DNA from: an uncultured Gemmatimonadales bacterium
GTDB taxonomy: Bacteria; Gemmatimonadota; Gemmatimonadetes; Longimicrobiales; RSA9
Reading direction: 5' to 3'
DNA length: 64,000 bases
NCBI GenBank assembly: GCA_963783305.1
Contig: CAWAMW010000017.1
Span: 256,001-320,000 of the forward strand
Positions 37,101 through 51,921 of this stretch are shown piece after piece. The notes under the pieces are model-generated. The model worked only from the letters and a program-made list of their open reading frames with translations. It was not told the DNA's origin and ran no database searches. Each line of letters starts with the position of its first letter. Within the stretch, counting starts at the first letter, position 1. Both the position numbers and the translations under genes were made by a program.

Positions 37101-37189
37101 TGGATCTTCCTTTTGGAGGCCGGTGCTGACGGTAACCTACGGGAGATGGAGCGGTCGGCAAGGCGGCGCGGGCCGGGATAACGGGGACG

Positions 37190-37266
37190 GCTCACGGTTC
37201 ACGGTTCACGGTTCACGGTTCACAGTTCACAGTTCACAGTTCACAGTTCACGGTTCACAGTTCACG
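37190..37266. repeat. heptamer tandem array (GTTCACR x10 plus one degenerate unit)
   Basis: Direct reading. Confidence 0.95.
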
Positions 37267-37318
37267 GGGAACCAAGTCCGGCAGCGGTCCGTTGATCGAG
37301 GATCCTCGACCGTTCCGT

Positions 37319-37388
37319 GGTTCGCGGTTCGTGGTTCGTGGTTCGTGGTCCGTGTTCTGTGTTCTGTGTTCTGTGTTCTGTGTTCTGC
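37319..37388. repeat. heptamer tandem arrays (GGTTCGT-like x5, then GTTCTGT-like x5)
   Basis: Direct reading. Confidence 0.95.
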
Positions 37389-37557: not shown

Positions 37558-40500
37558 TTGTCCATACTAGACCGGCTCCTTCCCGAGTTCCCGGAGGACC
37601 AGAAGGCCGACCGCGGTCGACTGCTGGGCCTCATGGGCATGTTCTTCCTGGTGGTCACCGCCGTCGGGGTGCTGAAGCCCGTGCGCAACGCCCTGGCGCT
37701 CTCCGGTCTCGGGGATCGCGCCTTCTACCGCGTATACCTGGTCAGCGCGGTCGTGGTGTTGATCGTGCCGATCTACAACCGGCTGGCCGATCGAGTGGGG
37801 TGGCGGGCGCTGGTGCCCGCTGTGGCGATCTTCTTCGGGCTGAACCTCCTTATCTTCCGCGTGCTCTATTCCGAGGGGAGCACCGTGCTCGGCGTGGTCT
37901 TCTACGGCTGGTACGACCTCTTCGCGGCGGCGCTGGTGACGCAGTTCTTCGTGGCCACCCACGCCATCCTGAACGCCCGCACCGCGCGGAGCGCGTACCC
38001 CCTCGTCATCGGGGGTGGCGCGGTGGGGGCCATGCTGGGCGGCGGCATCGCGGGCTTCATGGTCGACATCATCGGGACCCCGAACCTGCTGCTGGTGGGC
38101 GCATTCTTCATCCTGGCCTTCGGCGTGGGGATCCGGTTCGTATGGCCGGTGGACGCGCTGGAGGCGGTGGAGCGGGAGCGCTCGAAGCGGATCCGTCGTA
38201 GGGACGCCGTTTCCATGAGCGAGGTGCGGCGGGTGTTCTCGAACAGCCATGTGCGACTGATCGCGGTGAGCGTGTTGCTGATCGTCATGGCGAAGCAGCT
38301 GGTGGACTACCAGTACAACACCCTCACGGAGGAGATCTTCCTGACCCAGGACGCCATCACGGCGTTCCAGGGCAAGGTGAGCCTGGCCACCCAGTGGCTG
38401 CCCCTCGTGGCCGTAGTGACCCTCAGGCCGCTGCTGAAGCGCTGGGGCATCGGCGCCGTGGTGTTCCTCCTGCCCGGTCTGATGTTCATCACGAGCCTCG
38501 GCATGGCGGCGTTCTTCACCATCTGGGCGGTGATCGTGGTCCGGACCGTGGACACGACGTTCCGCTACTCCGCTGAGCGCGCGGGCCGGGAGATCCTGTA
38601 CGTCCCTGTCCCGGAATCGATCAAGCTGAAGGCCAAGACGTACATCGACGTGGGAGTGGAGAAGGGGCTGGGGAAGGCGCTGTCCGCGGGAGTGGTGGCG
38701 GTGCTGGTGGAGGTGCTGGGGCTCGGGCTCGGACAGATCGCGTGGGTCGTGGTGGCGCTTACGGCGGCCTGGGTCGTGGTCACGCTGCTCCTGCGCCGGA
38801 AGTACGTGGACACGCTCGCGCAGTCCATCCGCGGCCGCTTCGCGAGCTTCCAGGGGCTGTCCGCCTTCTCGGACGCGAGCACGCAGCGGCTCGTGCAGCA
38901 GGCGCTCGGCAGCCCCGATCCCGTCCAGGTCTCGTTCGGCCTCGACCTGGTGGAGCAGAGCGCCGGCACCGATACGCGACCCATCGCCGACGCCCTCCAC
39001 GACCTCCTGGAGCACAGCTCCCAGGCCATCCGACTGAAAGCGCTCCGGATCCTGACCGACGACCCGGACTCCATCGACCCCGTCCGGGCCCGCCAGCGAC
39101 TTCAGGACCCGGCGCGACCCGTACGCGAGCAGGCGGTGCTCGCGCTGGCCGCGCAGGCACCTGAGCAGAAGAGCGAGTTGATCCATGCCCTGCTCGCCTC
39201 CGTGCACGCGGACGTGCGCACGGCGGCGCTCGCGTGTCTCACTCGCGACCAGATCGCCGTGGACGTGGCGGAGGTGGTGGGCGGCGGCTATCTGGAAGAG
39301 CGCATGCGGCAGGCGGAAGAAGGGGAACGGGAGGCGCGCGTGGAGCTGGCACTGGCCGCGGGCGCCCTCCGCTCGCACCCCGGGGCGCGGGACCTCCTGG
39401 ACGACCTGCTGGGGGACCCTGATCCCGTGGTGGCCTCCGCGGCACTCCGCAGCGCGGCTCTCCTCGACCGTCCCGACCTCCACCCGGTCATGATCGCGGC
39501 GCTCCAGCGCCCCGGAACGCGGCAGGCGGCGCGGGAGGCATTGACGGAGCGCGGGGGCCGCGCTCTGGATGCCCTCGCCCGCCACCTCCTGGACGAAAGG
39601 GTGCCGAGTACGGTGCGACGACAGATTCCGGCCGTGCTCGCCCGTGTAGCCGACCGGCGATCGGCCGATGTGATGCTGCACAGTGTGGTGGCGCCCGAAA
39701 CCGACCAGCTGCTGGACTACAGGACGCTCAAGGCGCTCAGCCAGCTCCGGTTGAAGGCGCCCCACCTCCACTTCGACCGCGTGATGGTACGATCCGCGAT
39801 CCGGCGGGAGGTGGGTGCCGCGGCGGGCTACGATCGCGCCCGGCACTGTCTCGAGCGCGTCGGGGCCCGCGGCCCATCGGCCCACCTTCTCCGGCGCGCG
39901 CTCCAGGAGGCCTGGAACGAGCGGCAGGAGGGAGTCTTCCGCCTCCTCGGGCTCATGTACGAGCCGGAACCCATGTACCGCTGCTATCTGGCCGTGAGTG
40001 GCGGCGAGGCCAGAGCGCGGGCGAACGCGCTCGAGTGGCTCGAGGAGACCGTGGACCGTGAGCAGCTCGCCGAAATCGGACCTGTCGTGGGTCAGGCGCC
40101 CTCCCGCTCGGCCCTGCCGGACCTCCGGGGCGATCTCGGGCCCCTGCTCCGGGACGGCGATCCCTGGATCGCCCGGATGGCCGTGGCCGCCACGGGGGAG
40201 ATGGACGCGCGCTGGAGCCGGGCGGCGCTGCGTGATATCATCGACACCGGAACGAGCGACGAGCTCTGCGCCCTGGCGGAACGACTCCTCGCCCCACCAC
40301 GATCGGGACGGATGCCCATGGACCTCATAGAAAAGGTGTTCCTGCTCCAGAAGATCGATCTCCTCCAGGACGCCCGCAGCGCGCACCTTGCCCTCCTCGC
40401 CTCCATCGCCGAGGACGTGGACGTGGATGGCGGCACCGTGCTGCTCCGGCAGGGCGAGCCGACGGACGCGCTGTACGTGGTGGTCGAGGGCGCGGTGGAC

Positions 40501-40728
40501 CTGACCGGCGTCGCGGACCACCGGATGGAGGCGCTCGAAGGCAGCGCGTTCGGCACCTGGGCGCTCATCGACGAGGCCCCCAGCCTCGTCACCGCCACCA
40601 CACGAGGCCCCGCGCGACTGCTGCGGATCGCCCGCGGGGACTTCTACGACCTGCTGGCCGATCACTCGGAGCTCGCCCTCGGCCTGCTCCAGGGACTTGC
40701 CCGGCGGGTGCGTACCCTCGTAGCGTAA
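37558..40728 (+). CDS. Npt1/Npt2 (NTT/TLC, ATP/ADP translocase-like) MFS transporter fused to HEAT repeats and a cNMP-binding domain
   Basis: About 12 TM with 'LKPVRNAL', 'QLVDYQY', 'FRYSAERAGREILYVPVP...KLKAKTYID'; HEAT repeats; C-terminal 'IEKVFLLQKIDL...QGEPTDALYVVVEGAV...FG'. Confidence 0.88.
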   Translation: MSILDRLLPEFPEDQKADRGRLLGLMGMFFLVVTAVGVLKPVRNALALSGLGDRAFYRVYLVSAVVVLIVPIYNRLADRVGWRALVPAVAIFFGLNLLIFRVLYSEGSTVLGVVFYGWYDLFAAALVTQFFVATHAILNARTARSAYPLVIGGGAVGAMLGGGIAGFMVDIIGTPNLLLVGAFFILAFGVGIRFVWPVDALEAVERERSKRIRRRDAVSMSEVRRVFSNSHVRLIAVSVLLIVMAKQLVDYQYNTLTEEIFLTQDAITAFQGKVSLATQWLPLVAVVTLRPLLKRWGIGAVVFLLPGLMFITSLGMAAFFTIWAVIVVRTVDTTFRYSAERAGREILYVPVPESIKLKAKTYIDVGVEKGLGKALSAGVVAVLVEVLGLGLGQIAWVVVALTAAWVVVTLLLRRKYVDTLAQSIRGRFASFQGLSAFSDASTQRLVQQALGSPDPVQVSFGLDLVEQSAGTDTRPIADALHDLLEHSSQAIRLKALRILTDDPDSIDPVRARQRLQDPARPVREQAVLALAAQAPEQKSELIHALLASVHADVRTAALACLTRDQIAVDVAEVVGGGYLEERMRQAEEGEREARVELALAAGALRSHPGARDLLDDLLGDPDPVVASAALRSAALLDRPDLHPVMIAALQRPGTRQAAREALTERGGRALDALARHLLDERVPSTVRRQIPAVLARVADRRSADVMLHSVVAPETDQLLDYRTLKALSQLRLKAPHLHFDRVMVRSAIRREVGAAAGYDRARHCLERVGARGPSAHLLRRALQEAWNERQEGVFRLLGLMYEPEPMYRCYLAVSGGEARARANALEWLEETVDREQLAEIGPVVGQAPSRSALPDLRGDLGPLLRDGDPWIARMAVAATGEMDARWSRAALRDIIDTGTSDELCALAERLLAPPRSGRMPMDLIEKVFLLQKIDLLQDARSAHLALLASIAEDVDVDGGTVLLRQGEPTDALYVVVEGAVDLTGVADHRMEALEGSAFGTWALIDEAPSLVTATTRGPARLLRIARGDFYDLLADHSELALGLLQGLARRVRTLVA

Positions 40729-40766
40729 CGTGGCCGTACCCTCCCTTCCTGCCAGCAGCGCGGACC

Positions 40767-41246
40767 ATGGCTGAACAGCACACCCCCACCGTCCTGATCG
40801 TGGATGACGAGGAGATGGTCGCGACGGCGCTCCGTAGCTTCCTGGAACTCGAGACGTCCTATGACATCCTCACGTTCACCTCACCTACGGAAGCGATCCA
40901 GGCACCCCGGCTGCGCGATGTGAACGTGGTCATCGCCGACTTCATGATGCCGGGGATGGATGGCATTACTTTCCTGCGCCAGGTCCGGGAGTCGAACCCC
41001 GAGGCGACACGGATCCTTTTGACCGGGTACGCGGACAAGGAAAATGCCATCCGGGCGATCAACGAGGCGGGGCTGTATTACTACCTCGAGAAGCCCTGGA
41101 GCAACGAGCACCTCAAACTGGTGATCCGGAACGGTGTGGAGCGGTCCACCCTCTTCACGGAGCTGAACCAGCGTATCGAGGCGCTGGAGGGCGCGAACCA
41201 GGAGCTCTACGATATCCGGAGACGCCTGGTCCAGGCGTTCCTGTGA
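40767..41246 (+). CDS. response regulator (REC plus short coiled coil, no DNA-binding domain)
   Basis: 'LIVDDE', 'DFMMPGMDG', 'LTGY', 'EKPW'. Confidence 0.93.
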   Translation: MAEQHTPTVLIVDDEEMVATALRSFLELETSYDILTFTSPTEAIQAPRLRDVNVVIADFMMPGMDGITFLRQVRESNPEATRILLTGYADKENAIRAINEAGLYYYLEKPWSNEHLKLVIRNGVERSTLFTELNQRIEALEGANQELYDIRRRLVQAFL

Positions 41247-42799
41247 GACGGAAAGAGCTGCCCGAGGCGCCGGCCTGGACCTCGGTGGAGCGCGCTCTTT
41301 ATCGCCCGGTCCGCGCGCGGATCGCGGTGGCGGCGTGGGGGATCATACTCGGCGCCCTGATCCTTTTCGTCCTGCAGCTCCCCCTGTCCGGCCGCTTCTT
41401 CGGCCTGATCGTGGGTTGGGCCATGATCACCTCCGCTACGCTGCACTGGCTCGGCGGGCACCACCACACCGCTGTCTTCTTCCCCGCCCGATTCGTGCTC
41501 TTCGCGTTCGAGGTGGTGGCGGCAGCGTGGCTGGCGCACTACATCGGCGCCAGCAGCTGGCTCGCCACTCTTTTCCTGCTCTTCCCGGCGATCGAGTGGA
41601 ATATGCTCTACCCCGGGGGCTGGGGGATCATGGGCTCGCTCCTGGCCGTGGTCGCGTCGGGGACGCTGATCGTGGGCGAGGCAGTGGGCTTCGTGCCCGC
41701 GGGTGCCGTCTACCCCACCATCGACCCGGAGTACGGCGACCCGCGTTACGCGCTGGGTGCGTTCTTCGTCTCCGCATCGGTGATCGTCGGGCTCTCGACC
41801 GTGGTCAGCCGGTATGCCGAAGCCGGCCGTCGCCAGAGCCGTGAGCTGGTGGCGGCGAACGAGCGGCTCAGGGAGATGTCGGAGGATGTGCGACGGTCGC
41901 ATGCGGAGCTGGCAGAAGCGTACGATCAGCTGGGCAAAACACAGGCGGAGCTGGTAGGATCGGCGAAGCTGGCGTCGCTGGGCCACCTGATCGCGGGCGT
42001 GGCGCACGAGATCAACACACCGCTCGGGGCGCTCTACAGCAACCACGACACGATGCGCCGCGCGCTGGCGCGGCTGCAGGAGATCCTCGAGGACGAGGTG
42101 GTGGACGAGGACGAGCTCGAAGACGTCCGCAAGATCGTCCGGGCCATCGAGGGAGTGACGTCCACGAACAACATGGCCGTGGACCGGATGGTCAAGATCG
42201 TGGACAGCCTGCGCACCTTCGGCCGGGTCGATCGCTCCGAGCTGGACTTCGCGGACCTGCACGAGGGCCTTGAGAGCACGCTGGCGATCCTGGGCCACGA
42301 GCTTCGGAGCCGGCAGGTCTCGGTGGTGAAGGAGTATGGCGAGCTCCCCCGCGTAGAGTGCTATCCGAATCAGGTCCACCAGGTGTTCATGAACCTCATC
42401 CTGAATGGCGCGCAGGCCATGACCGGCCCGGGGACCATCACGATACGCACCCGCCGGGACGGGGAACACGCGGAGATCCAGATCCAGGACACGGGCGCCG
42501 GGATCCCTGCGGACAACCTCTCCCGCATCTTCGATCCCGGCTTCACCACGAAGGGGAAGCGAATGGGGATGGGAATGGGCCTGCTCATCACCAGCCAGAT
42601 CGTGGACCGGCACGGCGGCCGGCTCGTGGTATCGAGCGAGGTCGGCGCGGGTACAACGTTCACGGTGCGGCTGCCGGTCCGGCTGGAGAAGGGGACGGAA
42701 CCGGGCGCGCAGGGCGGCCGGGGTACGGCGGTGCGGGCTGACCCGGCCCCCGATACCAGCCTCAACGCTGGAGAAGAGATTCGTGCGACGGATATTTGA
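41243..42799 (+). CDS. multi-pass membrane sensor histidine kinase (NtrB-like core)
   Basis: Several TM helices; 'AHEINTP', 'QVFMNLILNG', 'DTGAGI', 'FTTK', 'GMGL'. Confidence 0.94.
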   Translation: MRRKELPEAPAWTSVERALYRPVRARIAVAAWGIILGALILFVLQLPLSGRFFGLIVGWAMITSATLHWLGGHHHTAVFFPARFVLFAFEVVAAAWLAHYIGASSWLATLFLLFPAIEWNMLYPGGWGIMGSLLAVVASGTLIVGEAVGFVPAGAVYPTIDPEYGDPRYALGAFFVSASVIVGLSTVVSRYAEAGRRQSRELVAANERLREMSEDVRRSHAELAEAYDQLGKTQAELVGSAKLASLGHLIAGVAHEINTPLGALYSNHDTMRRALARLQEILEDEVVDEDELEDVRKIVRAIEGVTSTNNMAVDRMVKIVDSLRTFGRVDRSELDFADLHEGLESTLAILGHELRSRQVSVVKEYGELPRVECYPNQVHQVFMNLILNGAQAMTGPGTITIRTRRDGEHAEIQIQDTGAGIPADNLSRIFDPGFTTKGKRMGMGMGLLITSQIVDRHGGRLVVSSEVGAGTTFTVRLPVRLEKGTEPGAQGGRGTAVRADPAPDTSLNAGEEIRATDI

Positions 42800-43754
42800 A
42801 GCTGCGCTGGTGGTCCTGCTGTTCGCGGCGCCCTCGGCCCGGGCCGAGGCGCAGGGAGCGAACGTCCTGTTCCCGGTGGACTCGATCGAGCAGCGGCTCT
42901 CGGAGGGATCGTTCCGCGTCATCGACCGGCGCGAGTCCCGGGGGATCAGTGGTGAGCGCACCAGCCGCACCGCTCTCTCCTTCAGCGACGGCTTGCTGCT
43001 CGTGGTCAAGTGGGCCCGGGCCCCGCGCGGCGGTGAGGAGTTCAACAACAGCCCGCAGTACGAGCTGGCGGCCTACGAGGTCCAGAAGCTGTTCCTGGGC
43101 GAGGATGATTACGTGGTCCCGCCCACGGTGGTCCGGGCGTTCCCCATCGAGGAGTACAAGGCACTGGACGCCGGCGATCCGGACGTCCACCCCACCTTCC
43201 GCGGCACCCGGTCGATCCTGGCGGTCCTCCAGTACTGGCTCCTCAGCGTGACCCCGGAGAACATCTGGGACTCGGAGCGGTACCGGACCGACGGCGAGTA
43301 CGCCCGGCACCTGGGCGACTTCAACGTGCTCACGTACCTGATCCGTCATTCCGACTCGAACACCGGCAACTACCTCATCTCGACGAACCCCGATGCCCCC
43401 CGCGTGTTCTCCGTGGACAACGGGATCGCCTTCTCCAGCCGGGAGAGCAACCGCGGGATGGAGTGGCGCCGGATCCGGGTGGACAGTGTGCCGGCCGAGA
43501 CGGTGCAGCGGCTGCGGTCGTTGACGCGGGAGGACGTGACGCGGGCACTGGAGACGGTCGCGGAGTTCCGGGTCCTCCCGGACAGCACTCTGGAGCGGGT
43601 AGCGCCCACCCCCAGCTTCGACGGGGGCCGGGGCGTCCGGCGCTCCGGCGATCGGATCCAGCTCGGTCTCACCCACTCCGAGATCGGCGCTCTTTGGCGC
43701 CGGATCGGTCAGCTCCTCCGGCTCGTGGACACCGGACGGATCGGGGTGATCTGA
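42783..43754 (+). CDS. exported protein with atypical kinase (PI3/PI4K-Fam20-like) motifs
   Basis: Signal peptide (ARA-E); 'VVKW', 'ELAAYEV', 'VPPTVVR', 'LIRHSDSNTGNYL', 'SVDNGIAF'. Confidence 0.7.
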   Translation: MRRIFEAALVVLLFAAPSARAEAQGANVLFPVDSIEQRLSEGSFRVIDRRESRGISGERTSRTALSFSDGLLLVVKWARAPRGGEEFNNSPQYELAAYEVQKLFLGEDDYVVPPTVVRAFPIEEYKALDAGDPDVHPTFRGTRSILAVLQYWLLSVTPENIWDSERYRTDGEYARHLGDFNVLTYLIRHSDSNTGNYLISTNPDAPRVFSVDNGIAFSSRESNRGMEWRRIRVDSVPAETVQRLRSLTREDVTRALETVAEFRVLPDSTLERVAPTPSFDGGRGVRRSGDRIQLGLTHSEIGALWRRIGQLLRLVDTGRIGVI

Positions 43755-44197
43755 TGGACGTGACCTTCGCGGTCCTGGCCGACTACGCCAATGTCACCCG
43801 GGAGGGGAAGCTGAATGTGATGGGCATCTTCGACCGCGTGGTCGCGCGCCAGCTCCCGTCGCGCTTCCCGCCCATGCAGCTGGTGGTCCGGCTCGAGGCC
43901 CAACCGGAGGAGCTGGGGAAGGAGCACGCCATCCGCATCCAGCTGGCCGACCCGGAGGACGCGAGCCTCTTCGATCTGAACGGCTCGTTCACCCCGCGTG
44001 GGGCCGAGCCGCACCAGTCCGTATCGGTGAACCACGTGGTGGGGCTGGCCGACCTGCCTCTTCAGACCACCGGTGTGCATACCTTCAGCGTATGGATCGA
44101 CGGCGTGCGCAAGCGCGAGATCCAGCTCCGCGTGGACGAGCCGCCCCGCCACCGCCCGCCGCTGCCCGACACCGGGTCGGACCCCACCTTCCACTGA
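43754..44197 (+). CDS. small beta-rich hypothetical protein (DUF6941-like)
   Basis: 'LADYANVTREGKLNVMGIFD...G.HTFSVWIDG'; TGATG coupling to the upstream gene. Confidence 0.75.
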   Translation: MDVTFAVLADYANVTREGKLNVMGIFDRVVARQLPSRFPPMQLVVRLEAQPEELGKEHAIRIQLADPEDASLFDLNGSFTPRGAEPHQSVSVNHVVGLADLPLQTTGVHTFSVWIDGVRKREIQLRVDEPPRHRPPLPDTGSDPTFH

Positions 44198-44240
44198 GGA
44201 AGAAGCCCCCGCCGGCCTGTTGCCGGCGGGGGCTTCTTCC
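44198..44240. terminator. probable bidirectional terminator hairpin
   Basis: Perfect 19-bp inverted repeat GGAAGAAGCCCCCGCCGGC/GCCGGCGGGGGCTTCTTCC between convergent genes. Confidence 0.85.
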
Positions 44241-49234: not shown

Positions 49235-50146
49235 ATGATGACGTTTCGCACGCTCCTGCCCGGACCTCGCCCCCTCCCCGCCGCCGCCGCGCTCCTGCTC
49301 ACCCTCGCGGCATGGACGTCGATGCCCGCCGTCGCGCAGGAGGAGACGGTGGCTTCCGCGGATCGCTGGCTGCCGCCCACCGCCGAGGGTGCGCTGGAGG
49401 CCCTGAACGCATCTCCGCGTCACGGCGAGTGGAGTATGGTCCGGCTGGCCGACGGCGACAGCGTCCGGAGCTGGATCGTATACCCGGAGCGTTCGGACGC
49501 GGCGCCGGTCCTGGTGGTGATCCACGAGATCTACGGCCTCACGAACTGGGTGCGCGCCGTGGCGGATCAGGCGGCCGCCGCGGGGTATATCGCCGTCGCG
49601 CCCGACCTGCTCACCATGCATGACGTCCCGGTGGATGCCGCCGGCGATCCGGAGCGTCAGGCGGCGGTGGCGGCCATCCGCGACCTCGACACCGACAGGG
49701 TACACCGCCAGATCCGGGCGGTGGCGGAGCACGCCATGGCGCTGCCATCGGCGCGGCCGGAGTACGCCATCACCGGCTTCTGCTGGGGTGGCAGCACCAC
49801 CTTCGAGCACGCCACGCGATACGATGACCTCGCAGCCGCAGTGGTCTTCTACGGCAGCTCACCCTCCGAGGAGGCGCTGGCCCGGGTGAGCGTGCCCGTC
49901 ACCGGGCACTACGGCGGCGATGACGAGCGTGTGAATGCCACCATCCCGCGCGCCCGCCAAGTGCTCGGTGATGCCTTCATCGCCAACATCCATCCGGGCG
50001 CCGGCCACGGCTTCATGCGCCAGCAGGACGGGCGGGACGGCGCCAACCTCCGCGCGGCGCGCCTGGGCTGGGGGATGCTCCTGGGCTTCCTGGACGGCGC
50101 GCGCCTGGAGGCCGCGACTCCCGCGGCGGCCGGCGGCGTTCAGTGA
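49235..50146 (+). CDS. exported dienelactone hydrolase family protein
   Basis: Signal peptide; 'IHEIYGL', 'GFCWGG', 'GHGF'. Confidence 0.94.
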   Translation: MMTFRTLLPGPRPLPAAAALLLTLAAWTSMPAVAQEETVASADRWLPPTAEGALEALNASPRHGEWSMVRLADGDSVRSWIVYPERSDAAPVLVVIHEIYGLTNWVRAVADQAAAAGYIAVAPDLLTMHDVPVDAAGDPERQAAVAAIRDLDTDRVHRQIRAVAEHAMALPSARPEYAITGFCWGGSTTFEHATRYDDLAAAVVFYGSSPSEEALARVSVPVTGHYGGDDERVNATIPRARQVLGDAFIANIHPGAGHGFMRQQDGRDGANLRAARLGWGMLLGFLDGARLEAATPAAAGGVQ

Positions 50147-51921
50147 CCGACCGCTCCGGCGTCCTCGTCCCGCGGGTCGGGCGCGCCGTGGCGGAGGTCA
50201 GACGGCCCGACCACGATGACGTGGGCGTGCCCCTGGGTCCCTCGCATCTCCAGCGTGTGACCCCGGTCGCGTAGCCCCTGCAACACGGGTTCGGACCAGC
50301 GCCCGCCCTCCATGCGCAGCTCGTCCGGCAGCCACTGGTGGTGCACACGGGCCGCTTTCACGGCCTCCAGCGCGTCCATCCGGAAGTCCATCAGGTTCAG
50401 GCTCACCTGGAGGACGGTGTTGATGATGGTGCGGCCGCCCGGCGATCCGACCACCGCCAGCAGCTCCCCGGCAGGCGTCGTGAGGATGGTGGGAGTCATG
50501 CTCGACAGCATCCGCTGCTCCGGCCGGGCCAGGTTGGGGGTGGTGCCGATGAGTCCCGACGCAGTGGTGAGGCCGGGCCCGGGGTTGAAGTCGCCCATTT
50601 CGTTGTTGAGCAGGAACCCCGCGCCCGCCACCGTGATAGCGCTGCCGTAGCTGTTTTCCAGCGTATACGTGGTGGACACCGCCAGCCCGGCACCATCCAC
50701 TACCGAGTAGTGCGTGGTCTCGGTGCTCTCCGCCCCCGCCAGCGCGGTGTCCTCCACGACCGACGGCGTCGCGCGCCCGGCGACGATCCCGCTCCGGAGC
50801 TCGGCCGCATAGGCCTTGCTCGTCAGCCGGTCCAGCGGCACGTCGATGAAATCGGTGTCGGCCACGTACCGCGCGCGGTCCCGGTACGCCAGGCGCATGG
50901 CCTCCGCCAGATGATGGAGGTAGGCCGGTGAGTTGTGTCCCATCGCCGCCAGGTCGAAGCCCTCCAGGATATTGAGCATTTCCACCACGGCCGTTCCACC
51001 ACTCGATGGCGGCGGCATCCCGATGATCCCATAGCCGCGGTAGCTTCCCCGGATCGGCGCACGCTCCACCGGCTCGTATCGGGCCAGGTCCTCCCGCGTG
51101 ATCAGTCCGCCGCCCCTCTCCATCTCCTCTACCAGCAGCCGCGCGGTCTCGCCGGAGTAGAACCCATCCGCCCCATCATCGCGGATCCGCTCGAGCGTCC
51201 GCGCCAGGTCCGGCTGCCGGAGCACCTCGCCCACCTGGTAGGGTTCGCCATTGCGGTAGAAGGCCTCCAGCGTGGCCGGATACCGCCTCGCTCGCGACAG
51301 GAAGGACTCCAGCGACGATGCCGCGCCCGGCGTCATCTCGAACCCCTCCGCCGCCAGCCGGATCGCAGGCTGCACCAGCTGCTCCCACGGCAGGCTGCCA
51401 TACTTCGAGTGGGCGTACGCGAACCCCGCCACCGTCCCGGGAACCCCCACGGCCATGTGACTGTAGTGGTGCCGGTCCGGGTCGTACTCGCCATTCTCGT
51501 CCAGCCACATCCGGGGGTGCGCCGCCAGCGGGGCCTTTTCACGGAAGTCGAGGGTCGTGGCCGAGTCGTTCGGGAATCGGATCACCATGAAGCCGCCCCC
51601 GCCGATGTTCCCGGCCCTCGGATATACGACAGCGAGGGCAAACCCCGTCGCCACCGCCGCGTCCACGGCATTGCCGCCGCTCCTGAGGATCTCGTCGCCG
51701 ATTCGGCTCGCCAGGATGTGCGCTGAAACCACCATCCCGTCGTCCGCCACCGCGGCCCGGTCGGCCGGGACGGTCGCCTCCACGACGACGGCGTGCGCGG
51801 GAGCGGGGCGCTCAGAAGGCGTTGGCTCCGCGGCGGGCGCGGCGCAAGCGCCCAACGCGATCAGGAGCAGCGCCGGAAGATGGTGGTGGAGTCGTCTTGA
51901 ACCGATGGAGCGTAGAGTCAT
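50140..51921 (-). CDS. ggt: gamma-glutamyltransferase (probable lipoprotein)
   Basis: 'GGNAVDAAVA', 'GGGGF', 'DFREKAP', 'ETTHYS' (Thr nucleophile), 'LSSMTPT', 'GSPGG'; lipobox 'LGAC'. Confidence 0.96.
   Translation of the reverse strand: MTLRSIGSRRLHHHLPALLLIALGACAAPAAEPTPSERPAPAHAVVVEATVPADRAAVADDGMVVSAHILASRIGDEILRSGGNAVDAAVATGFALAVVYPRAGNIGGGGFMVIRFPNDSATTLDFREKAPLAAHPRMWLDENGEYDPDRHHYSHMAVGVPGTVAGFAYAHSKYGSLPWEQLVQPAIRLAAEGFEMTPGAASSLESFLSRARRYPATLEAFYRNGEPYQVGEVLRQPDLARTLERIRDDGADGFYSGETARLLVEEMERGGGLITREDLARYEPVERAPIRGSYRGYGIIGMPPPSSGGTAVVEMLNILEGFDLAAMGHNSPAYLHHLAEAMRLAYRDRARYVADTDFIDVPLDRLTSKAYAAELRSGIVAGRATPSVVEDTALAGAESTETTHYSVVDGAGLAVSTTYTLENSYGSAITVAGAGFLLNNEMGDFNPGPGLTTASGLIGTTPNLARPEQRMLSSMTPTILTTPAGELLAVVGSPGGRTIINTVLQVSLNLMDFRMDALEAVKAARVHHQWLPDELRMEGGRWSEPVLQGLRDRGHTLEMRGTQGHAHVIVVGPSDLRHGAPDPRDEDAGAVGH

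What the first reader, a model, noticed from the sequence alone, without database searches (positions are those of the whole stretch)
37558..44240. Nucleotide translocase operon with an exported kinase-fold protein: candidate ATP-supplied extracytoplasmic phosphorylation system
Seen: five co-directional genes closed by a 19-bp hairpin, with a 38-bp gap and then 4-, 17- and 1-bp overlaps. They encode an NTT-HEAT-cNMP fusion, a REC-only regulator, a membrane histidine kinase, a signal-peptide protein with kinase-like motifs (VVKW, ELAAY, HSDSNTGN, DNG) and a small unknown protein. Established: NTT/TLC proteins exchange ATP/ADP in Rickettsia, Chlamydia and plastids; NTT-HEAT(-cNMP) fusions occur in free-living bacteria with no function known to me; the periplasm is generally thought to lack ATP. 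This organism has purE/purK and gltA, so energy parasitism seems unlikely. Inference: the translocase may export ATP, under cNMP and two-component control, to fuel an exported kinase.
Basis: partly seen in the sequence, partly recalled or inferred. Interest (0 to 1): 0.82.

Follow-up and report, generated by a model that had tools for sequence, protein, structure and literature searches.

The report
ATP-carrier operon with exported Fam20-like kinase
A bacterium with its own respiration and ATP-synthase genes keeps a relative of the ATP/ADP carriers of parasites and plastids in one gene row with a two-component pair and a kinase predicted to be exported and to fold like the animal Golgi kinase Fam20; the pairing recurs in distant bacterial groups and likely means these cells send ATP into the periplasm to phosphorylate targets there.

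Summary
The five genes, junctions and 19-bp hairpin are as described. The 323-aa protein models confidently, with Fam20 and PI4-kinase-II tied as best folds (Z about 16); catalytic residues are conserved; 111 of 120 relatives carry a signal-peptide-like start. The carrier domain's closest solved folds are NTT ATP/ADP translocases, and it keeps the ATP-relevant lysine. Linkage is tight: in two Gemmatimonadota samples every kinase-bearing genome has the carrier orthologue (20 of 20; 17 of 17), adjacent wherever contigs allow. In other phyla, 33 of 80 loci of a divergent lipoprotein branch have an NTT within 5 kb (about 0.8% by chance), from several NTT clades. Exported phosphatases follow or fuse to the kinase in many relatives, though not in this operon. 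Best reading (0.6): ATP-out/ADP-in supply for periplasmic phosphorylation. Against: no transport or activity data; a characterised chlamydial NTT prefers ATP import; many NTT-HEAT genes lack such partners. cAMP control is not supported: the domain lacks the cAMP-binding Glu and Arg in 20 of 20. Not found in print in ten searches; this scan noted the same operon type and related clusters before on other DNA.

The parts
37558..40728 (+). NTT (TLC-family) 12-helix carrier, residues ~1-425, fused to HEAT repeats and a C-terminal cNBD-fold domain that lacks the cAMP-binding Glu and Arg
   Evidence: Pfam; profile hits solved Chlamydia and Arabidopsis NTT1 at E ~1e-40; model pLDDT 92.9, best folds 9j3l and 9j3n, TM 0.78-0.80; alignment
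40767..41246 (+). Receiver-only response regulator with invariant phospho-acceptor D58 and a C-terminal coiled-coil-like helix; no output domain
   Evidence: Pfam; alignment of 27, D13/D14/D58/T86/K109 invariant
41243..42799 (+). NtrB-type histidine kinase (HisKA + HATPase_c) with a 4-5-helix membrane part that many orthologues lack
   Evidence: TM-less in 5 of 11 orthologues listed
42783..43754 (+). Signal-peptide protein (predicted cleavage after A23) with an atypical kinase fold nearest Fam20 and PI4K type II; K76, E94, H189-x-D191, N196, D212-N-G
   Evidence: model pLDDT 94.4; Foldseek Fam20C E 1.6e-7; VIA-align Z 16.3/16.2/16.1; conservation; signal heuristic
43754..44197 (+). DUF6941 protein; accessory, present in only 4 of 30 related loci
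   Evidence: Pfam; tally
44198..44240 (.). Perfect 19-bp hairpin between convergent genes; likely terminator

Best explanation
This operon encodes an NTT-family inner-membrane carrier that likely hands cytoplasmic ATP to the periplasm in exchange for ADP (plus phosphate), and a kinase, predicted to be exported and Fam20/PI4K-II-like in fold, that would use this ATP to phosphorylate envelope targets, probably proteins. Shown: the gene row, the family assignments, the conserved catalytic and carrier residues, and the linkage across phyla. Predicted: both folds, and export of the kinase. Inferred: transport, its direction, kinase activity and the target. An exported phosphatase would reverse the mark; it is encoded next to or fused with the kinase in many relatives but not in this operon, although this genome has two lipoprotein phosphatases of the second partner family elsewhere. 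The HEAT/cNBD arm and the REC/HK pair would gate the carrier so that ATP is not lost; this step is the weakest, and cAMP is probably not the signal.
For: (1) Kinase: pLDDT 94.4, best folds Fam20 and PI4K2A at Z 16 over 236-261 residues; K76/E94/D191/N196/D212 kept in 100-106 of 107 divergent relatives. (2) Export: signal-like N-terminus in 111 of 120 close relatives versus 0-3 of 120 internal controls; 82 of 107 in the wide set, 41 with a lipobox; a Cys pair on neighbouring model strands is both-present in 73, both-absent in 24 and single in 10 of 107. (3) Carrier: nearest solved folds are NTT1 of Arabidopsis and Chlamydia; K373 aligns with AtNTT1 K527, which matters for ATP transport (PMC2606016; alignment) and is invariant in 20 of 20. 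(4) Linkage: 20 of 20 kinase genomes among 61 have the orthologous carrier, and 17 of the 19 others have it 0.1-2.2 kb upstream on the same contig; 17 of 17 among 251, with 16 of 16 others adjacent; 33 of 80 loci (33 of 73 genomes) in other phyla within 5 kb, 23 with two or more NTT hits, against about 0.8% by chance; the linked NTTs fall in several separate, strongly supported clades at about 20% identity. (5) Exported phosphatases of two different families accompany the kinase: 17 of 29 Gemmatimonadota loci and 11 of 80 others; six full-length kinase-phosphatase fusions; nearest solved relative of the first family is a Shewanella protein-tyrosine phosphatase, E 7.5e-40. (6) A second exported ATP-type enzyme (PPDK_N plus PEP-utilizer) shares 10 of the 80 loci. 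(7) One protein fuses an NTT to the kinase (P0147), a single sequence. (8) The genome makes its own ATP and purines.
Against: No activity, transport, localisation or expression data. The chlamydial PamNTT1 strongly prefers ATP import against ADP export (PMC1951785, passages), so the direction must differ here. Carrier residues are only partly kept: K155 becomes Tyr and E245/E385 become Asp (numbers recalled), and the K527 position is Lys in only 39 of 79 kinase-linked NTTs. 47 of 80 divergent kinase loci have no NTT in the DNA held (24 of 46 with 5 kb or more on both sides), though 39 of 42 such genomes have one elsewhere (background not measured). 4 of 14 metagenome loci with 5.5 kb or more upstream lack one. 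Of 17 distant NTT-HEAT loci in the same phylum, none has this kinase and only 2 show another exported ATP-type enzyme (selected neighbours only). In two myxococcal loci the NTTs flank a DUF2252 protein with no visible signal peptide. The Gemmatimonadota counts are among kin (13 of 17 from one genus). Signal peptides come from my heuristic, not SignalP. This operon has no phosphatase.
Confidence: 0.6

Rival explanations
1. Transceptor: the NTT-HEAT-cNBD protein mainly senses a periplasmic nucleotide or the kinase's product and signals through its cytoplasmic arm to the sensor-less histidine kinase and receiver; ATP for the exported kinase comes from leakage or from outside.
For: The HK has no membrane or sensor part in 5 of 11 orthologues listed and the REC has no output domain, so both need partners; REC and HK genes also flank distant NTT-HEAT genes that lack the kinase (L251, L253); the cNBD is highly conserved but non-canonical; E. 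coli has periplasmic ATP without an NTT (PMC7432876).
Against: The kinase is also linked to single-domain NTTs with no arm (28 of the 79 kinase-linked carriers), and REC/HK are missing at 2 of 29 loci; the carrier-kinase link is the constant one.
Confidence: 0.13
2. Salvage or import: the carrier works in the canonical direction, taking ATP, ADP or other nucleotides in from the periplasm, and the exported kinase uses environmental or leaked ATP.
For: Characterised NTTs import; PamNTT1 prefers ATP-in/ADP-out (PMC1951785); exported phosphatases nearby could scavenge phosphate.
Against: The genome has respiration, ATP synthase and purine synthesis; an importer would starve an adjacent exported kinase; the repeated pairing with exported ATP users rather than nucleotidases fits supply better.
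Confidence: 0.12
3. Same supply logic but different chemistry: the carrier moves another nucleotide or a phosphorylated solute, or the kinase acts on a glycan, lipid or small molecule for envelope building or nutrient capture rather than on proteins.
For: PI4K2A (lipid) and Hydra Fam20 tie with Fam20C at Z 16; Fam20B-type enzymes act on sugars (recalled); carrier residues diverge; NTT relatives carry NAD and other nucleotides (PMC5381601); neighbours include dikinase-like and penicillin-binding-fold exported proteins.
Against: The commonest partner is a PPP-type phosphatase nearest a protein-tyrosine phosphatase. I saw no glycan- or lipid-pathway genes among the recurring neighbour clusters, but read most of them by eye without annotation.
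Confidence: 0.1
4. The genes travel together as an inherited block without a functional link between carrier and kinase.
For: The Gemmatimonadota counts are among kin; more than half of the divergent kinase loci lack a neighbouring NTT.
Against: Linkage recurs with several distant NTT clades and several gene orders, including convergent and divergent ones, at about 40% against 0.8% by chance; presence and absence agree almost perfectly within the phylum.
Confidence: 0.05

Closest known systems
NTT-HEAT-cNBD fusion proteins (Major, Embley and Williams 2017, PMC5381601)
   Same: Identical three-part architecture in free-living bacteria; described as uncharacterised.
   Different: The main text read mentions only the adjacent cNBD gene and no kinase, phosphatase or two-component neighbours; it suggests cAMP tunes ATP uptake, whereas the cNBD here lacks the cAMP-binding residues and export is the better fit.
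Plastid and chlamydial ATP/ADP translocases (AtNTT1 9j3j/9j3l/9j3m; Chlamydia NTT1 9j3n/9j3o; PamNTT1)
   Same: Same family and fold; K527-equivalent lysine and the C-terminal charged motifs kept.
   Different: 15-16% identity; large cytoplasmic arm; K155 not kept; host is not an energy parasite; proposed direction reversed.
Fam20 secretory-pathway kinases (Fam20C Golgi casein kinase, Fam20A, Hydra Fam20) and PI4K type II
   Same: Best structural matches (Z 13.6-16.3); DNG metal-binding motif; signal peptide, as in Fam20; the same logic of a lumenal kinase fed by a nucleotide exchanger (ER/Golgi exchanger recalled).
   Different: 13-17% identity, no sequence-profile match to Fam20 chains, rmsd about 4 A; bacterial; substrate unknown.
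CotH spore-coat kinase; CtkA; HipA
   Same: Bacterial atypical kinases of the same broad fold (Z 9.5-11.4).
   Different: Lower structural scores; none is known to me to be paired with a nucleotide carrier (recalled).
Shewanella cold-active protein-tyrosine phosphatase (2z72, 1v73)
   Same: Nearest solved relative of the exported phosphatase that follows the kinase in relatives (E 7.5e-40).
   Different: That phosphatase gene is absent from this genome.

Membership tests
NTT/TLC carriers (PF03219) | Sequence profile match to the family | tested here: met
   Pfam TLC 27.8 bits, cut-off 21; profile of relatives hits solved NTT1 at E ~1e-40; TIGR00769 matched far below its cut-off
NTT/TLC carriers (PF03219) | 12-helix MFS fold nearest NTT structures | tested here: met
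   model; top four Foldseek hits are NTT1, best TM 0.80
ATP/ADP translocases (AtNTT1 type) | Charged residues K155, E245, E385, K527 | tested here: inconclusive
   K527 = K373 kept; E245 and E385 are Asp (D120, D250); K155 is Tyr. K527 from PMC2606016; the other three numbers recalled, all four fit one offset of 84
ATP/ADP translocases (AtNTT1 type) | Measured ATP/ADP counter-exchange | not testable with these tools
   needs a transport assay
NTT-HEAT-cNBD fusions | NTT + HEAT + cNBD in one chain | tested here: met
   PMC5381601
cAMP/cGMP-binding domains | Phosphate-binding cassette with Glu (FGE) and Arg (PR[ST]A) | tested here: not met
   FG(T/A)W(A/S)LI..P(S/T) in 20 of 20; canonical motif recalled
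Protein-kinase-like superfamily, PI3K/PI4K-Fam20 branch | Two-lobed kinase fold with Lys, Glu, catalytic Asp/Asn and metal-binding Asp | tested here: met
   some relatives match PF00454
Fam20 family proper | Closer to Fam20 than to any other kinase family | tested here: inconclusive
   Fam20 Z 16.3/16.2 ties with PI4K2A Z 16.1; no Fam20 chain among 26 profile hits to E 1
Fam20 family proper | Secretory signal peptide | tested here: met
   own heuristic with internal controls; not SignalP
Fam20 family proper | Phosphorylates S-x-E protein motifs or xylose (recalled) | not testable with these tools
   needs an enzyme assay
Two-component systems | HK with H-box and ATPase domain; REC with acceptor Asp | tested here: met
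Energy-parasite NTT use | Host lacks its own ATP and nucleotide synthesis | tested here: not met
   4.35-Mb genome with purK/purE, citrate synthase, oxidases and ATP synthase

The most novel reading that the evidence does not exclude
Many bacteria run a dedicated, gated ATP-export line into the periplasm. NTT(-HEAT) carriers serve as a general nucleotide supply for exported enzymes: a Fam20-like protein kinase with its phosphatase here, dikinase-like and Omp85-associated kinase-like proteins elsewhere, and NAD(P) for Tat-exported reductases with a sister carrier clade. This operon would be a bacterial counterpart of the Golgi secretory-kinase system, writing a reversible phosphoproteome outside the inner membrane.
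Probability: 0.4. Interest if true: 0.93.

Novelty: categorically new. Interest (0 to 1): 0.8.

Why it matters
How ATP crosses the bacterial inner membrane is stated as an open question (PMC7432876, passages), and the widespread NTT-HEAT proteins have no known function (PMC5381601). This operon names a candidate carrier and a candidate consumer, and so makes both questions testable with standard assays. If right, it adds reversible phosphorylation to a compartment usually treated as ATP-poor and gives the animal secretory kinases a bacterial parallel. The parts belong to known families; the system has no described bacterial counterpart in the searches made.

Tried and rejected
Sequence search of the kinase against solved structures gave nothing useful, nor did the single carrier sequence. 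The first genome-contig scan with the single kinase found no relatives. Complex prediction of the carrier's cytoplasmic arm (436-1056) with the REC protein gave no verdict (score 0.02, mark 0.32); it is not used as evidence. No RNA holder was listed, so no reads were laid. My idea that loss of REC/HK tracks loss of the cNBD was wrong: the 812-aa carriers without REC/HK keep a cNBD. An apparent NTT-phosphatase fusion in L197 looks like a frameshift read-through and was rejected. The NTT-kinase fusion P0147 is a one-member cluster and did not reappear in the longer-protein search, which scored only 8000 candidates, so it carries little weight. DUF6941 was rejected as a core part (4 of 30). The paper on the NTT1 structures was not held, so its ATP-contact residues were not compared. 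Ten literature searches listed no paper on this linkage; most subscription papers are outside the library and no supplements were read, so the supplement of PMC5381601 could bear on novelty. The share of random Myxococcota genomes with an NTT was not measured.
Full report
Observation. The five co-directional genes, the 38-bp gap, the 4-, 17- and 1-bp overlaps and the 19-bp hairpin are all in the sequence as described. The window lies in a 4.35-Mb, 96% complete genome. Named homologues of the kinase are mostly Gemmatimonadota, several of them Longimicrobiales, so I take that as the lineage. The genome has one copy of the carrier and one of the kinase, and encodes purK/purE, citrate synthase, heme-copper oxidases and ATP synthase; it is not an energy parasite.

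The exported kinase. Gene 4 has no Pfam match but 1360 relatives in the large protein set and 674 among 50%-identity representatives. The model from 120 sequences is confident (pLDDT 94.4). Foldseek ranks Fam20C first (E 1.6e-7). The wide VIA-align search gives Hydra Fam20 Z 16.3, zebrafish Fam20C 16.2, PI4K2A 16.1, then CtkA 11.4, actin-fragmin kinase 11.3 and CotH 10.6. Fam20 and PI4K-II are therefore tied, and identity is only 13-17%: it is built like them but is not shown to be a member of either. K76, E94, D191, N196 and D212 are kept in 105, 100, 106, 102 and 105 of 107 divergent relatives. My signal-peptide heuristic (not SignalP) scores 111 of 120 close relatives, against 0-3 of 120 at four internal positions; the first 22 residues are poorly conserved and A23-Q24 strongly so. 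In the wide set 82 of 107 score, 41 with a lipobox. Two Cys positions on neighbouring model strands are both present in 73, both absent in 24 and single in 10 of 107, as a disulfide would give; kinship inflates this.

The carrier. A profile of 94 NTT domains from these loci hits the solved Chlamydia and Arabidopsis NTT1 at E about 1e-40. The model of residues 1-435 (pLDDT 92.9) has these as its top four folds, TM up to 0.80. Using the alignment, K373 corresponds to AtNTT1 K527, whose mutation impairs ATP transport (PMC2606016, passages); it is invariant in 20 of 20 orthologues, as are D120 and D250 at the E245 and E385 positions, while K155 is replaced by Tyr (these three numbers recalled). 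Across all kinase-linked NTTs the K527 position is Lys in 39 of 79, so substrate may vary.

Linkage in the phylum. Among 61 related genomes the kinase is in 20, all in one family. The carrier orthologue (44% identity or more) is in the same 20 plus one 62%-complete genome whose contig ends after the REC gene. In 17 of the 19 other genomes the kinase lies 0.1-2.2 kb downstream on the same strand; two have broken contigs. In 251 genomes drawn across the phylum, the kinase is in 17 and the orthologue (40% or more) in the same 17 plus one truncated copy beside an integrase; all 16 others are adjacent, but 13 come from one genus. Of 30 fetched loci, 29 hold the kinase, 27 of these both REC and HK, 17 an exported metallophosphoesterase and 4 DUF6941. 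The HK lacks any membrane part in 5 of 11 listed.

Linkage beyond the phylum. A pattern from the divergent lipoprotein branch returned 80 loci from 73 genomes, labelled mostly Myxococcota, Deltaproteobacteria, Candidatus Binatia and Spirochaetales, with a few Acidobacteriota, Alphaproteobacteria and Entotheonella (labels as in the record titles). 33 loci have an NTT domain within 5 kb, 23 have two or more NTT hits, and among 46 loci with 5 kb on both sides 22 do. Chance, from NTT density in 42 such genomes, is about 0.8% per locus. Gene orders differ, and the linked carriers fall in several separate clades with 99-100% support, both HEAT-fused and single-domain (quick tree, root arbitrary). 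For 42 of the 47 unlinked loci I searched the genome: 39 have an NTT elsewhere, without a background figure. The kinase is uncommon: 7 of 151 genomes in the phylum of one myxococcal host. In 80 metagenome loci, 16 hold an NTT domain, 10 of the 14 with enough upstream DNA, and 36 have the phosphatase within 3 kb; several low-GC loci have kinase plus phosphatase with no carrier in view.

Partners. The first phosphatase family has a hydrophobic N-terminal stretch in 24 of 26 testable copies against 0 of 26 controls, and its nearest solved relative is a Shewanella protein-tyrosine phosphatase. It is fused to the kinase in P0124, P0128 and P0283-P0286. A second, lipoprotein phosphatase family is in 11 of the 80 divergent loci, and an exported ~1000-aa PPDK_N/PEP-utilizer protein in 10. 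This genome lacks the first family but has two of the second elsewhere. One protein fuses a single-domain NTT to the kinase (P0147); it is a single sequence and may be an artefact.

Controls against. None of 20 loci around more distant NTTs in relatives holds the kinase or first phosphatase, nor do 11 further distant NTT-HEAT loci. Of these 17 distant NTT-HEAT loci, one sits by the dikinase-like module (L258) and one by an Omp85 barrel and a lipoprotein with kinase-like motifs seen by eye (L053); I scanned only selected neighbours. So the rule is 'this kinase goes with NTTs', not 'every NTT-HEAT has an exported kinase'. PamNTT1 prefers ATP import (PMC1951785, passages), though it does take ADP in against ATP plus phosphate at a lower rate (PMC2606016), and ATP supply to a host has been proposed for an endosymbiont NTT (PMC7969357, passages).

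Mechanism. A kinase outside the inner membrane needs ATP there. The gene it stays with, across phyla and carrier clades, belongs to a family of nucleotide exchangers. The simplest account is ATP out, ADP plus phosphate back, with an exported phosphatase closing the cycle (0.6). Rivals are a sensing role for the carrier (0.13), canonical import (0.12), other cargo or non-protein targets (0.10) and mere co-inheritance (0.05). How REC/HK and the arm act is open.

Novelty. NTT-HEAT-cNBD proteins are described and uncharacterised (PMC5381601; main text read, parts 1-3 of 4, supplement not seen). A review says the route of ATP across the inner membrane is unknown and reports about 24 uM periplasmic ATP per 10^10 E. 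coli cells (PMC7432876, passages). Ten searches listed nothing on this linkage; other papers were seen as listings only. After I had formed my reading, this scan's index showed the same operon type in another Gemmatimonadota genome and several related clusters. These are unchecked AI notes and not independent support; the counts above are my own. Score 0.8: strong, multi-lineage genomic evidence for a system with no described bacterial counterpart, a direct handle on an open question, and no biochemical proof.

Noticed in passing
window 37187-37267 and 37316-37387: Two blocks of 7-bp tandem repeats (ACGGTTC x11.6; CGTGGTT and GTTCTGT) in the intergenic stretch between purE and the carrier gene; the second block folds into a bulged hairpin (z -2.05).
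   Followed up: partly
L055:9603-10754, L057:9388-10338, L058:9463-10725, L062:9657-10616: 4 of 14 single-domain NTT loci have an adjacent NAD(P)-using enzyme (aldo-keto reductase or epimerase family) with a twin-arginine-like signal (Pfam TAT hit in L058 only), suggesting cofactor supply to the periplasm by a sister carrier clade.
   Followed up: partly
L176, L179, L201, L240, L241, L258 and others: Signal-peptide ~1000-aa PPDK_N/PEP-utilizer protein with one or two exported PF13354 (class A beta-lactamase fold) proteins beside NTT genes; P0212 fuses PF13354 to the kinase.
   Followed up: partly
L053:11148-14266: Omp85 barrel plus a 581-aa lipoprotein with kinase-like motifs (by eye, no Pfam hit) next to a distant NTT-HEAT gene.
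   Followed up: partly
L246:9426-10592, L247:5757-6938: DUF2252 protein without a visible signal peptide within NTT / NTT-HEAT / tandem-cNBD clusters, in one case with a PAP2 phosphatase.
   Followed up: no
L034:14049-15059, L048:6293-7309, L041, L042: Second kinase copies, either tandem or directly upstream of a gene resembling gamma-glutamyltransferase (by eye); the window has a similar gene at 50140-51921 but only one kinase copy.
   Followed up: no
L064, L066, L067, L068: Pairs of divergently oriented single-domain NTT-like genes in four genomes of a neighbouring family.
   Followed up: no
G000:C16:122248-123471 and G000:C2:533794-535515: Two metallophosphoesterases with lipoprotein-like signals, of the family that accompanies the kinase in myxococcal-type loci; candidates for the missing phosphatase.
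   Followed up: partly
window 40767-42799: The REC protein's C-terminal helix resembles the linker that precedes the H-box in REC-HK hybrid kinases (recalled), so the pair may be a split hybrid that later gained a membrane domain in this lineage.
   Followed up: no
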